Positions 20,421 to 21,365 of a DNA stretch of 64,000 nt are shown piece by piece. This DNA is from Pirellulales bacterium. GTDB taxonomy: Bacteria; Planctomycetota; Planctomycetia; Pirellulales; JANQPP01. The DNA lies in the NCBI GenBank assembly GCA_028289405.1, contig JANQPP010000109.1:5128-69127 (forward strand). Direction: 5' to 3'. Numbering within the stretch: the first letter of the stretch is position 1; each line of letters begins with the position of its first letter. The notes under the pieces are model-generated. The model was given only the letters and a program-made list of their open reading frames with translations, was not told where the DNA came from and made no database searches. The translations under genes were made by a program, and so were the position numbers.

Positions 20421-21365
20421 ATGACTGACGCGGATCCCGTCGAAGGCTGGCCGGATAAACCCGCCAACCTAGATGTATTCCTGCAAGGCAAGCTCAACAA
20501 AGAGATGCCCCACGGGGAAGGCAACTGGGGCCGCCGGTATGCCTTCGATGAATATCACGGTTCGCTACGTTATCCCATTTGGGAGGCTTTCGGCCACTTG
20601 TATGACACGGTCGGCGGGCCGACGGCGACCGTCCATATCGCCACGACCGAACGCGATCGCGAAATCGACTTCCGCCTGGAAACATTCGCCGCCGCCACCG
20701 GATTGGACCGGCAGCAGCGAAGCAAGGATTGGATCTTCATGGGCTCCGCACAGCAATTGCGCCTGTTGGATTCCCGGGAGACGCACGCGGAGCGGAAGAT
20801 CTTGGCGGCGATGCGGCCAGCCCAAAACCCAGGGCTGAAAATCGGCCAAGAAGCCATCGACGCAGTGTTTCATCGCCAGTTTGGGGAGCCCATCCGAGAT
20901 CCCAAACGTACCGAGCCGAAGAAGAAAACTTTGAACCAACTCAGCCGGCAGCGACGCTGGCTCGGCGCGTTTCTGGGCGGCTGGACGGAAACACTATTCA
21001 TCTTTGTTACCCGCAGTCCTTGTGGTGAGTGTTCAGAGGCGCTCGTGCATGCCTTGGGCGAGGAGGAACAGCACCATTTTGGGCGATTGATCGTCGCCTT
21101 TTGTACTTTTTATAAAGGCGGTCACGGCGACAACGCGTTGCCTTGCCGAGATTTCTTTCGAGCCACGCAAGGCGTGCGGCCCGGAATTGAGCTTTATAAA
21201 GTCCATTGGAACGGCACGACGGAGGATTTCATTTCCTCGCGGGAAACGCTTCGTGAGACTTACTTCGATCCGGCTTCCAGCCAACACCGCACCGCGCACC
21301 CGGTGGCGCTCAACGGGCTGCCCAGCGATCCACGCTATTGCATTTACCGGCTTGTGCCGACTTGA
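20421..21365 (+). CDS. Hypothetical protein with cytidine-deaminase-like zinc motif (HAE ... PCxxC)
   Basis: 314 aa. H122-A-E124 (nt 20784-20792) begins a helix THAERKILAAM. A hydrophobic strand LFIFVTRS is followed by P200-C-G-E-C204 (nt 21018-21032). There is no signal peptide. The gene ends 80 bp upstream of vgrG on the same strand. The ORF is solid; the functional call is tentative. Confidence 0.45.
   Translation: MTDADPVEGWPDKPANLDVFLQGKLNKEMPHGEGNWGRRYAFDEYHGSLRYPIWEAFGHLYDTVGGPTATVHIATTERDREIDFRLETFAAATGLDRQQRSKDWIFMGSAQQLRLLDSRETHAERKILAAMRPAQNPGLKIGQEAIDAVFHRQFGEPIRDPKRTEPKKKTLNQLSRQRRWLGAFLGGWTETLFIFVTRSPCGECSEALVHALGEEEQHHFGRLIVAFCTFYKGGHGDNALPCRDFFRATQGVRPGIELYKVHWNGTTEDFISSRETLRETYFDPASSQHRTAHPVALNGLPSDPRYCIYRLVPT

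What the first reader, a model, noticed from the sequence alone, without database searches (positions are those of the whole stretch)
20421..21365. Deaminase-fold protein with an unusually long insert, encoded immediately upstream of vgrG
The 314-aa product has the two halves of the cytidine/nucleic-acid deaminase zinc site in the expected structural context. H122-A-E124 opens a helix (THAERKILAAM). P200-C-x-x-C204 follows a hydrophobic strand (LFIFVTRSPCGECSEAL). The two halves are separated by 75 residues, whereas the classical spacing is about 25-35 residues. The insert is highly charged (EPIRDPKRTEPKKKTLNQLSRQRRW). The protein has no signal peptide and a ~120-aa N-terminal region of unknown function. 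The gene ends 80 bp before a VgrG spike gene on the same strand. Polymorphic-toxin deaminases are known T6SS cargo, so this could be a new deaminase effector clade. I cannot see an obvious immunity gene next to it. That means either it is not a toxin or the immunity arrangement is unusual.
Basis: partly seen in the sequence, partly recalled or inferred. Interest (0 to 1): 0.8.

Follow-up and report, generated by a model that had tools for sequence, protein, structure and literature searches.

The report
VgrG-linked APOBEC-like deaminase family

Summary
The ORF at 20421-21365 (+) encodes 314 aa with H122-A-E124 and P200-C-x-x-C204, 75 residues apart, and it ends 80 bp before a genuine VgrG gene.

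The protein belongs to a tiny family: 16 sequence clusters among about 15 billion proteins, all metagenomic. None passes any Pfam or NCBIfam threshold. [H/C]-[A/S]-E-R-K and S-P-C-x-x-C are invariant, and ten members have Cys in place of His. A 16-sequence AlphaFold model (pTM 0.73) matches almost only AID/APOBEC, dCMP-deaminase and ADAT structures.

The long insert is real but occurs only in the window's three-member clade. The other 13 members have the classical 22-32 residue spacing.

The new result is the gene order. In 13 of 13 contigs with downstream sequence, vgrG follows directly, at most 91 bp away. In 11 contigs the gene lies between clpV and vgrG in a T6SS core cluster. No immunity gene is adjacent anywhere.

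This is not a classical polymorphic toxin. It is a free-standing enzyme co-inherited with the spike. I read it as an immunity-less, VgrG-loaded deaminase effector (confidence 0.5). The main rival is a producer-side accessory enzyme.

The downstream FHA-DUF6931 gene is a T6SS accessory gene, not a demonstrated immunity gene.

The parts
20421..21365 (+).
   Evidence: ORF and translation. Only sub-threshold Pfam hits, to SNAD4, APOBEC2, APOBEC_N and dCMP_cyt_deam_1. No NCBIfam or PADLOC hit. AlphaFold model with pTM 0.73. Foldseek top hits are AID/APOBEC, dCMP deaminase and ADAT2/3. pN/pS is 0.33-0.40.
20784..20792 (+). H122-A-E124: the first zinc ligand and the catalytic glutamate, at the N-terminus of helix 123-131.
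   Evidence: E-R-K is invariant in 16 of 16 members, and the ligand is His in 6 and Cys in 10.
20814..20984 (+). Clade-specific insert (aa 132-188; K+R 12, D+E 5) between helix 2 and strand 3.
   Evidence: It is present only in P0001-P0003 and partly deleted in P0002. pLDDT is below 50 over most of it (segments 138-140, 149-166 and 171-183). ADAT3 carries an insertion at the same place.
21018..21032 (+). P200-C201-G-E-C204: the second and third zinc ligands, after strand 189-198 and at the start of helix 202-211.
   Evidence: S-P-C-x-x-C is invariant in 16 of 16 members. It aligns with the SWSPCxxC motif of APOBEC3G.
21446..23422 (+). vgrG (tssI), the T6SS spike gene; it starts 80 bp after X on the same strand.
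   Evidence: Phage_GPD 1.3e-93, Phage_base_V and Gp5_trimer_C. TIGR03361 scores 612.7 bits. It shares 37-59% identity with the VgrGs downstream of X homologues.
23460..24458 (+). FHA-DUF6931 fusion protein, a T6SS accessory (TagH-neighbourhood) gene.
   Evidence: FHA 5.6e-17 and DUF6931 2e-50. The same gene follows vgrG in L001, ahead of PAAR. Free-standing DUF6931 genes lie beside vgrG, PAAR and tagH in the Leisingera and Azospirillum T6SS clusters.
24585..24606 (+). Terminator-like hairpin that closes the X-vgrG-FHA/DUF6931 unit ahead of serA.
   Evidence: Consensus scan only. No such site lies between X and vgrG.

Best explanation
Gene X encodes a zinc-dependent nucleic-acid deaminase of the 'Helix-4' (AID/APOBEC-like) division of the deaminase superfamily. 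The most likely mechanism has four steps. (1) The free-standing enzyme binds the VgrG trimer non-covalently, probably through the family-specific N-terminal segment (about aa 15-64) and the conserved C-terminal strand (aa 303-313, D-P-R-x-x-I-x-R-L). (2) It is fired with the spike by the T6SS. (3) In the recipient cell it deaminates bases in a polynucleotide, most plausibly cytosine in ssDNA or RNA. (4) No neighbouring immunity protein is needed, either because the intended target is not a sibling cell (a eukaryote or an unrelated microbe) or because activity in the producer is held off in some other way. What is shown: the deaminase signature and fold, the absence of curated-family membership, the invariant adjacency to vgrG, and the absence of an adjacent immunity gene. 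What is inferred: spike binding, secretion, the substrate and the target. The 57-residue basic insert of the window clade lies in the helix-2/strand-3 loop. That loop is at the end of the fold away from the zinc site, so the insert should not disturb catalysis. It is a clade-specific surface addition of unknown role.
For: Motif: [H/C]-[A/S]-E-R-K and S-P-C-x-x-C are invariant in 16 of 16 members that share as little as 22% identity, and they show the His/Cys swap at the first ligand that is typical of true deaminases.
Fold: the 16-sequence AlphaFold model has pTM 0.73 and pLDDT 86-93 around both motifs. Its order of elements is helix 50-64, strands 89-95 and 105-108, helix 123-131 (HAE), strand 189-198, helix 202-211 (PCxxC), strand 220-229, helix 243-247, strand 256-263. 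A helix between strands 4 and 5 is what defines the Helix-4 division (Iyer 2011, PMC3239186).
Structure search: nearly all of the top 50 Foldseek PDB hits are APOBEC3C/H/G/F/A, AID and APOBEC1, followed by dCMP deaminase and ADAT2/3 (best E 2.4e-3, probability 0.99). In the viral library the top hits are dCMP/CMP deaminases.
Sequence profiles: a profile search of PDB sequences returns only deaminases below E = 0.3, with APOBEC3G best at 4.9e-5. One HMM alignment spans both motif halves of APOBEC3G. All 8 members scanned hit APOBEC_N, APOBEC2 and SNAD4 below threshold.
Context: vgrG lies directly downstream on the same strand, overlapping by 4 bp or separated by up to 91 bp, in 13 of 13 contigs with downstream sequence. 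clpV-X-vgrG occurs in L003, L004, L005, L007-L012 and the P0011 contig, and tssG-clpV-X in L006. Where the cluster is split (window, L001), X stays with vgrG and not with clpV. X clades coincide with VgrG clades.
Precedent: every experimentally characterised T6SS-linked deaminase is a toxin (PMC7901873). Iyer et al. note that AID/APOBEC-like, XOO_2897 and OTT_1508 deaminase toxins often lack immunity genes and probably target hosts.
Against: Nothing here shows activity, zinc binding, VgrG binding or secretion.
The fold matches are statistically modest: E about 1e-3, TM 0.24 normalised by the query and about 0.4 by the target, and rmsd about 10 A. Sequence similarity to known deaminases is concentrated in the strand-3/helix-3 segment; hhalign against AID aligned only 22 columns.
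A fixed position inside the core cluster, vertical co-inheritance and the lack of an immunity gene are more typical of accessory or structural T6SS genes than of effectors.
In L003 and the P0011 contig a canonical DUF4123 adaptor module lies downstream of vgrG, so another protein may be that spike's cargo.
No known T6SS adaptor or delivery motif was recognised in X.
Confidence: 0.5

Rival explanations
1. X is a T6SS accessory enzyme that works inside the producer cell. It would be a catalytically active deaminase that edits or modifies a nucleic acid or nucleotide connected with regulating or firing the system, and it would not be secreted.
For: It holds a fixed position between clpV and vgrG in 11 contigs, across GC contents of 46-66% and X identities down to 22%. 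No immunity gene is adjacent anywhere. In the window clade X travels with accessory and core spike genes (vgrG, FHA-DUF6931, PAAR) and not with a recognisable effector-immunity pair. A separate DUF4123 effector module exists downstream in L003 and the P0011 contig.
Against: No T6SS accessory function is known for any deaminase. The closest annotated T6SS clusters work without X: Azospirillum (VgrG 42.7% identical) and Leisingera. X diverges faster than its neighbours. Mean pairwise identity over local alignments is about 40% for X, against 50% for the VgrG N-terminus and 61% for the ClpV C-terminus.
Confidence: 0.25
2. X is a catalytically silent deaminase-fold scaffold. It would act as an adaptor or chaperone that loads another effector onto VgrG, or caps the spike, and it would keep the zinc site only for structural stability.
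For: Adaptor genes typically sit beside vgrG. Zinc-binding but inactive deaminase domains do exist, for example the N-terminal domain of APOBEC3G, which is the best PDB sequence match.
Against: The catalytic glutamate, together with the following R-K, is invariant in 16 of 16 members. Established pseudo-deaminases such as ADAT3 lose that glutamate (general knowledge). X shows no similarity to the DUF4123, DUF1795 or DUF2169 adaptors.
Confidence: 0.1
3. X is a classical antibacterial toxin whose immunity protein is encoded non-adjacently. In the window clade the immunity protein would be the FHA-DUF6931 protein downstream of vgrG; a 2026 preprint labels a DUF6931 gene 'SsdA-like immunity'.
For: X, vgrG and FHA-DUF6931 form one apparent operon in the window and in L001. 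The preprint 10.64898/2026.06.19.733351 calls a Pseudovibrio DUF6931 gene 'putative DUF6931/SsdA-like immunity'.
Against: Neither the DUF6931 domain alone nor a 4-sequence profile matches SsdAI or any other PDB chain at E of 10 or less. Free-standing DUF6931 genes lie in T6SS core clusters that lack X, next to tagH, PAAR and vgrG (Leisingera: vgrG-DUF6931-PAAR-tagH-tssK; Azospirillum: DUF6931-tagH-tssK). That is the pattern of a machine accessory gene. The one clpV-X-vgrG locus with readable downstream DNA (L003) has no DUF6931, and the gene after vgrG in the P0011 contig is a DUF4123 gene.
Confidence: 0.06
4. X is a housekeeping nucleotide or tRNA deaminase (of the dCMP/cytidine deaminase or TadA type) that lies next to vgrG by chance.
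For: The window island sits among housekeeping genes, with serA immediately downstream, and has the same GC content as the window: 0.585 against 0.582.
Against: There are only 16 clusters among about 15 billion proteins, and none in 185,579 GTDB species representatives or 72,556 plasmids. Adjacency to vgrG holds in 13 of 13 contigs. X fails every curated housekeeping-deaminase model.
Confidence: 0.02

Closest known systems
AID/APOBEC polynucleotide cytosine deaminases (Pfam APOBEC_N, APOBEC2, SNAD4, NAD1; Helix-4 division of Iyer et al. 2011)
   Same: They are the best structural and sequence matches. They share the element order, with helix 4 between strands 4 and 5. The S-P-C-x-x-C motif resembles SWSPCxxC. 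The strand-4/helix-4 loop is extended and variable and begins with an invariant aromatic residue, Y231.
   Different: All Pfam scores fall below the gathering thresholds; the best E among the 8 members scanned is 1.6e-4. Strand 3 has R or K where APOBECs have the hallmark Trp. In the model, strand 5 is followed by one helix and then a terminal beta-strand, not by two helices. The first zinc ligand is Cys in 10 of 16 members. The family is bacterial, free-standing and tied to clpV/vgrG.
T6SS DNA deaminase toxins DddA (BaDTF1), SsdA (BaDTF2) and BaDTF3
   Same: They are deaminase-fold enzymes genetically linked to T6SS spike components, and they are the only experimentally established role for a deaminase in a T6SS (PMC7901873).
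   Different: Those toxins are C-terminal domains of large polymorphic proteins with an adjacent cognate immunity gene. They are strain-variable (dddA is present in 97 of 308 B. cenocepacia genomes). They belong to clades that Iyer et al. place in the C-terminal-hairpin division. None appears among the top 50 structural matches. X is free-standing, conserved in position, and has no adjacent immunity gene.
XOO_2897-like and OTT_1508-like bacterial toxin deaminases (Iyer et al. 2011)
   Same: [quoted passage not shown]
   Different: X has no hit to XOO_2897-deam at E of 1 or less. It hits OTT_1508_deam only at E of 0.088 or worse, and in only 3 of 8 members. Those clades are C-terminally truncated (strand 5 absent, or degraded after strand 3), whereas X has a complete core with strand 5.
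ADAT3/Tad3, the eukaryotic tRNA adenosine deaminase subunit
   Same: It has a large insertion between the HxE-type helix and PCxxC. About 94 ADAT3 residues align to 46 profile positions, and they align to residues 120-212 of the window protein.
   Different: It is a eukaryotic, catalytically inactive partner of ADAT2, and the match is only marginal (E 0.13-1). X keeps its glutamate.
DUF6931 / TagH-neighbourhood T6SS accessory genes (this concerns the downstream partner gene, not X)
   Same: The order vgrG-DUF6931-PAAR-tagH in Leisingera matches vgrG-(FHA-DUF6931)-PAAR in L001.
   Different: In the window and in L001 the FHA domain and DUF6931 are fused into one protein.

Membership tests
Deaminase superfamily (CDA fold, zinc-dependent) | [H/C]xE at the start of helix 2 and PCxxC at the start of helix 3 | tested here: met
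   HAE is at residues 122-124 and PCGEC at 200-204. Both are invariant across 16 members, with a His/Cys alternation at the first ligand. The motifs sit at the N-termini of helices 123-131 and 202-211, each preceded by a strand.
Deaminase superfamily (CDA fold, zinc-dependent) | Three-layer alpha/beta/alpha fold similar to solved deaminases | tested here: met
   The Foldseek top 50 in PDB are almost all AID/APOBEC, dCMP deaminase or ADAT2/3 (best E 2.4e-3, probability 0.99), and the BFVD top hits are dCMP deaminases. The scores are modest: TM 0.24 by query and about 0.4 by target.
Deaminase superfamily (CDA fold, zinc-dependent) | The three ligands converge on one zinc ion, and the protein has catalytic activity | not testable with these tools
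No biochemistry was possible.
Any curated deaminase family (Pfam-A 2025, NCBIfam 20.0) | Score above the curated gathering or trusted cut-off | tested here: not met
   The best Pfam hit of the window protein is SNAD4 at 16.6 bits against a cut-off of 27. The best E-value among the 8 members scanned is 1.6e-4 (APOBEC4_like). NCBIfam returns nothing.
AID/APOBEC clade (features from Iyer et al. 2011, Table 1) | Helix 4 between strands 4 and 5, and an extended strand-4/helix-4 loop with an aromatic residue | tested here: met
   The model has strand 220-229, then a loop, helix 243-247 and strand 256-263. F227, Y231 and P241 are invariant, and the loop length varies within the family.
AID/APOBEC clade (features from Iyer et al. 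2011, Table 1) | A large hydrophobic residue (Trp) in strand 3, immediately before S-P-C | tested here: not met
   That position is Arg or Lys in all 16 members (T-R-S-P-C or S-K-S-P-C).
AID/APOBEC clade (features from Iyer et al. 2011, Table 1) | Two additional helices after strand 5 | tested here: not met
   The model shows one helix (267-280), a low-confidence stretch, and then a confident terminal strand at 306-313.
Polymorphic T6SS deaminase toxins (DddA/SsdA type) | The toxin is a C-terminal domain fused to a PAAR, Rhs, VgrG or other trafficking region | tested here: not met
   Family members are free-standing proteins of 271-314 aa with no other domain.
Polymorphic T6SS deaminase toxins (DddA/SsdA type) | A cognate immunity gene immediately adjacent | tested here: not met
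   X and vgrG overlap by 4 bp or are separated by up to 91 bp in every locus. The upstream neighbour is clpV in 11 contigs. DUF6931 is not supported as an immunity protein.
Polymorphic T6SS deaminase toxins (DddA/SsdA type) | Cassette-like variability between related loci | tested here: not met
   The same family occupies the same slot in every locus, and X clades match VgrG clades.
VgrG-dependent T6SS cargo effector | Encoded next to the cognate vgrG on the same strand | tested here: met
   This holds in 13 of 13 contigs with downstream sequence.
VgrG-dependent T6SS cargo effector | Physical binding to VgrG and T6SS-dependent secretion | not testable with these tools
   This needs pull-down and secretome experiments, or at least a multimer structure prediction.

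The most novel reading that the evidence does not exclude
An APOBEC-like polynucleotide deaminase is a fixed component of one T6SS lineage that needs no immunity protein. Two versions are possible. It could be the first nucleic-acid-modifying 'core accessory' enzyme of a T6SS. Or it could be a universally carried mutator or editing effector aimed at non-kin cells such as protists, hosts or distant bacteria. In either version it would be the closest free-standing bacterial counterpart of AID/APOBEC seen so far, and a compact new scaffold for base editing.
Probability: 0.25. Interest if true: 0.85.

Novelty: new variant of a known kind. Interest (0 to 1): 0.66.

Why it matters
Deaminases delivered by T6SS (DddA, SsdA) have already yielded mitochondrial and strand-specific base editors. 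They also showed that interbacterial toxins can mutagenise survivors.

This family differs from them in four ways. Its fold is APOBEC-like (Helix-4), not DddA/SsdA-like. It is a small free-standing protein. It is co-inherited with the spike gene and not swapped as a cassette. It has no immunity gene beside it.

If it is an effector, it asks how a producer tolerates a nucleic-acid deaminase without an antidote, and it hints at non-kin targets, possibly eukaryotic ones. If it is an accessory enzyme, it would be a new type of T6SS component.

The family contains natural variants: a His or a Cys first ligand, and the presence or absence of a 35-50 residue insert. These are ready-made comparisons for structure-function work.

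The work also shows that DUF6931 is a T6SS accessory gene of the tagH neighbourhood, fused to an FHA domain in this window.

Tried and rejected
- AlphaFold with only the 3 close homologues gave pLDDT 36.7 and was unusable. It was replaced by the 16-sequence model.
- Two scans of GTDB species representatives, using patterns from both clades, found no relative. The metagenome scan added only 2 loci.
- A third homologue search with the 16-sequence profile found nothing new.
- tblastn against plasmids with the window protein and with P0012 gave no match.
Sequence alone therefore does not establish APOBEC membership.
- PADLOC gave no hit, so a defence-system reading was dropped.
- DUF6931 as an SsdAI-like immunity protein is not supported. 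The domain alone and a 4-sequence profile match nothing in PDB sequences, and the genomic pattern points to a machine accessory gene.
- The co-divergence test was mixed. X against VgrG gave Spearman 0.40 (p = 0.015, pairs not independent). X against the ClpV C-terminus gave no correlation.
- The 22-aa ORF after X in L002 is not a VgrG start, because that contig ends 27 bp after X.
- The model coordinates are not exposed, so the zinc-site geometry could not be measured.
- The organism could not be named. The gene content suggests Planctomycetota or a PVC relative: a Sigma70_ECF-type sigma factor, a sulfatase-HEAT protein, a giant Big_12 protein, dockerin and LRR proteins. That is inference only.
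Full report
**Observation.** The ORF at 20421-21365 (+) is real and translates to 314 aa. The gene stops 80 bp before the ORF 21446-23422. That ORF is a bona fide T6SS spike gene: Phage_GPD E 1.3e-93, Phage_base_V, Gp5_trimer_C, and TIGR03361 at 612.7 bits. 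The protein has no hydrophobic segment.

The motif pair is not chance. Among 265 stop-free segments of at least 100 aa in all six frames of the window, only this one carries [HC][AVS]E-x(15-110)-PCxxC. The gene has the GC content of the window (0.585 against 0.582). It is under purifying selection relative to its two orthologues, with pN/pS 0.33-0.40 and synonymous sites saturated.

**A very rare family.** The word-indexed search of 5.8 billion clusters found only two relatives, at 54% and 53% identity. A full HMMER scan of 1.84 billion representatives with the three-sequence profile found six proteins at E of 0.001 or less. A second profile search raised the total to 16 clusters, P0001-P0016. 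A third found nothing more.

None of the members carries a source name other than 'hypothetical protein'. All are from metagenomic or environmental assemblies. Two scans of 185,579 GTDB species representatives and tblastn against 72,556 plasmids found none. No member reaches any Pfam or NCBIfam cut-off, and PADLOC has nothing.

**It is a deaminase.** Fourteen columns are invariant across the 16 sequences, which share as little as 22% identity. They include E124-R125-K126, S199-P200-C201, C204, F227, Y231 and P241. The first zinc ligand is His in six members (H-[A/S]-E-R-K) and Cys in ten (W-C-A-E-R-K). This is the His/Cys alternation known from genuine deaminase clades (Iyer et al. 2011).

A family profile searched against all PDB sequences returns deaminases only below E = 0.3. 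APOBEC3G is best, at 4.9e-5 with the 16-sequence profile and 2.8e-4 with the 8-sequence profile. APOBEC2, 3C, 3F and 3H, ADAT3 and dCMP deaminases follow, with TadA and ADAT2 appearing for the 8-sequence profile. One alignment to APOBEC3G covers both motif halves. All eight members scanned give sub-threshold hits to APOBEC_N, APOBEC2 and SNAD4.

The first AlphaFold run, with 3 sequences, was useless at pLDDT 36.7. With 16 sequences the model reaches pTM 0.73, with pLDDT 86-93 around both motifs. Its elements are, in order:
- helix 50-64
- strands 89-95 and 105-108
- helix 123-131, which opens with HAE
- strand 189-198
- helix 202-211, which opens with PCxxC
- strand 220-229
- helix 243-247
- strand 256-263
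- helix 267-280
- a confident terminal strand at 306-313

A helix between strands 4 and 5 places the protein in the Helix-4 division of Iyer et al., together with AID/APOBEC, XOO_2897, OTT_1508, TadA and dCMP deaminase.

Foldseek against PDB gives a top 50 made up almost entirely of APOBEC3C/H/G/F/A, AID and APOBEC1, then dCMP deaminase and ADAT2/3. The best hit has E 2.4e-3 and probability 0.99. Against BFVD the top hits are phage dCMP/CMP deaminases.

The scores are modest: TM 0.24 by query, about 0.4 by target, and rmsd about 10 A. hhalign against a single AID sequence aligned only 22 columns. The fold assignment is therefore strong through its consistency, whereas APOBEC membership is not established. 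I could not measure the ligand distances, because the model coordinates are not exposed.

**The N-terminus and the insert.** Only about 35-50 residues are a family-specific extension. That extension contains a conserved N-L-D-x-Y-L-Q-x-[KR]-L helix in the six HAE-type members.

The long spacing is confined to the window clade, at 75, 58 and 72 residues in P0001-P0003. The other 13 members have 22-32 residues, which is the classical value. Within the clade the charged middle (HRQFGEPIRDPKRTEPK) is deleted in P0002. Most of the insert is modelled at pLDDT below 50. The insert occupies the helix-2/strand-3 loop. By the geometry of the fold that loop lies at the end opposite the zinc site; this is inference from the topology. 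ADAT3 has an insertion at the same place. The insert is thus a variable surface addition and not a disruption of the active site.

**Genomic context, the main new result.** I examined every locus that could be retrieved.

| Gene order | Loci |
|---|---|
| clpV-X-vgrG, same strand | L003 (P0012, within tssB-tssC-hcp-tssE-tssF-tssG-clpV-X-vgrG-DUF4123...), the P0011 contig (tssG-clpV-X-vgrG-DUF4123), L004 (P0009), L005 (P0015, the most divergent member), L007 (P0010), L008 (P0004), L009 (P0005), L010 (P0006), L011 and L012 (P0007) |
| tssG-clpV-X, then contig end | L006 |
| X-vgrG | L016 (P0014) |
| X-vgrG-(FHA-DUF6931), with no clpV upstream | window; L001 (P0002), which adds PAAR after it |
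| contig ends 27 bp after X; no clpV upstream | L002 (P0003) |

These assignments rest.

vgrG follows directly in 13 of 13 contigs that have downstream sequence. X and vgrG either overlap by 4 bp or are separated by up to 91 bp, which leaves no room for an intervening gene. The three loci without clpV upstream are exactly the insert-bearing clade. When the cluster is split, X stays with vgrG.

The VgrGs are orthologous, at 37-59% identity to the window's VgrG. X groups coincide with VgrG groups: window with L001; L008, L009 and L010; L003, L004 and L011. The Spearman correlation of pairwise identities is 0.40, but the pairs are not independent. There is no correlation with the short ClpV fragments.

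The nearest annotated VgrG is in Azospirillum, at 42.7% identity, and its cluster has no X. No other T6SS core gene lies in the 64-kb window. In the window no terminator-like site separates X from vgrG. One such site follows the FHA-DUF6931 gene at 24585-24606 (consensus scan only).

**The immunity question.** No small conserved ORF accompanies X in any locus. A 2026 preprint calls a Pseudovibrio gene downstream of vgrG 'DUF6931/SsdA-like immunity'. This made the window's FHA-DUF6931 protein (23460-24458) a candidate. I tested that idea in three ways:
- The DUF6931 half alone matches no PDB chain at E of 10 or less, and a four-sequence profile gives only chance-level hits, none of them SsdAI.
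- tblastn finds DUF6931 genes on 44 plasmids. In Leisingera the order is tssC-vgrG-DUF6931-PAAR-tagH-tssK-tssL. In Azospirillum it is DUF6931-tagH-tssK-tssL. These are core clusters without any X.
- The one clpV-X-vgrG locus with readable downstream DNA (L003) has no DUF6931, and the gene after vgrG in the P0011 contig is a DUF4123 gene.

DUF6931 therefore behaves as a T6SS accessory gene of the tagH neighbourhood. In the window and in L001 it is fused to an FHA domain, a Rosetta-stone link to the phospho-threonine regulatory branch. A fold-level comparison with SsdAI could not be run because the structure-prediction jobs were exhausted.

**Mechanism.** What is shown:
- an intact deaminase signature in a deaminase fold
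- strict, deep co-localisation with vgrG
- no adjacent immunity gene

From these I infer a spike-loaded effector that deaminates a polynucleotide in the recipient (confidence 0.5). The reasoning is as follows:
- Every characterised T6SS-linked deaminase is a toxin (PMC7901873).
- X follows VgrG and not ClpV when the cluster breaks.
- The family-specific terminal segments are candidates for spike binding.
- The APOBEC-like features argue for a polynucleotide substrate over a free nucleotide. These are S-P-C and the invariant aromatic residue at the start of a variable strand-4/helix-4 loop, the loop that sets target choice in AID/APOBEC.
- Iyer et al. noted that Helix-4 toxin clades often lack immunity genes and probably act on hosts.

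Several things weigh against this reading. The positional fixity inside the core cluster, the vertical inheritance and the missing immunity gene are what one expects of an accessory gene. L003 and the P0011 contig also have a canonical DUF4123 effector module downstream of vgrG. I therefore give 0.25 to a producer-side accessory enzyme, 0.10 to a catalytically silent adaptor, 0.06 to a classical toxin with FHA-DUF6931 or another distant gene as its immunity protein, and 0.02 to a coincidental housekeeping enzyme.

**Comparison and novelty.** X works most like the T6SS deaminase toxins, but it fails their defining architecture: it is not a C-terminal cassette, has no adjacent immunity gene and is not strain-variable. 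It looks most like AID/APOBEC, but it fails two of that clade's listed features (Trp in strand 3, and two helices after strand 5) and all curated thresholds.

I therefore file it as a new family within the Helix-4 division and as a new variant of the 'T6SS deaminase' theme. It is not categorically new. The 'polymorphic toxin' framing and the emphasis on the insert are not.

**Limits.** No activity, metal, binding or secretion data exist. Many contexts come from contigs of 1.3-3 kb. The fold evidence rests on one AlphaFold model built from a shallow alignment.

Noticed in passing
window 23460-24458 (+); L001 6665-7669; L014 3914-4546; L015 3878-4486: DUF6931 is a T6SS-cluster gene that lies beside tagH, PAAR and vgrG in Leisingera and Azospirillum. 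In the window and in L001 it is fused to an N-terminal FHA domain, which links DUF6931 functionally to the FHA/TagH regulatory branch. The 'SsdA-like immunity' label used in a 2026 preprint is not supported by sequence searches.
   Followed up: yes
family alignment A3 (P0001-P0016): The three insert-bearing members (window, L001, L002) are exactly the loci where the gene is not preceded by clpV. Gain of the loop insert therefore coincides with detachment of the X-vgrG pair from the core T6SS cluster.
   Followed up: partly
window 18658-19283 (+): A ParD antitoxin (TIGR02606, E 6.4e-9) and a ParE toxin (PF05016, E 5.3e-12) form a pair whose end lies about 1.1 kb upstream of the deaminase gene. 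The pair is followed by a DUF4190 membrane-protein gene on the opposite strand (19374-20108). Neither is conserved next to X in other loci.
   Followed up: partly
L003 970-9991: The T6SS core genes on this 89.5-kb ENA contig (tssC, tssF, clpV) are called in several fragments. That looks like frameshift errors in the assembly and not like pseudogenes. The X homologue P0012 is intact.
   Followed up: no
window 42000-50333 (-): A giant 2,777-aa protein with repeated Big_12 Ig-like domains (E 4.5e-59), probably a surface adhesin.
   Followed up: no
window 26873-27808 (-) and 33523-34350 (+): Two leucine-rich-repeat proteins (LRR_6 at 6.4e-18; LRR_4 at 4.1e-6). These are unusual for bacteria and are sometimes associated with interaction with eukaryotic cells.
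   Followed up: no
window 27848-30169 (-) and 55961-57670 (+): Two multi-domain proteases: one combines trypsin-like, transglutaminase-core and TPR domains, and the other combines a trypsin-like domain with a dockerin.
   Followed up: no
window 7122-9412 (-), 12923-14812 (-), 62016-63131 (-): An ECF sigma factor (including a Sigma70_ECF match) next to a Ser/Thr kinase, a sulfatase fused to HEAT repeats, and a McsB-like ATP:guanido phosphotransferase. Together with the giant proteins this gene content suggests a Planctomycetota/PVC-type genome. The taxon could not be tested.
   Followed up: no
L001 7682-11033: In the closest relative's locus the spike module continues with PAAR, a class I methyltransferase (359 aa) and a 608-aa Abhydrolase_7 protein. 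The last two could be cargo or unrelated genes, and they are absent from the window, where serA follows directly.
   Followed up: no
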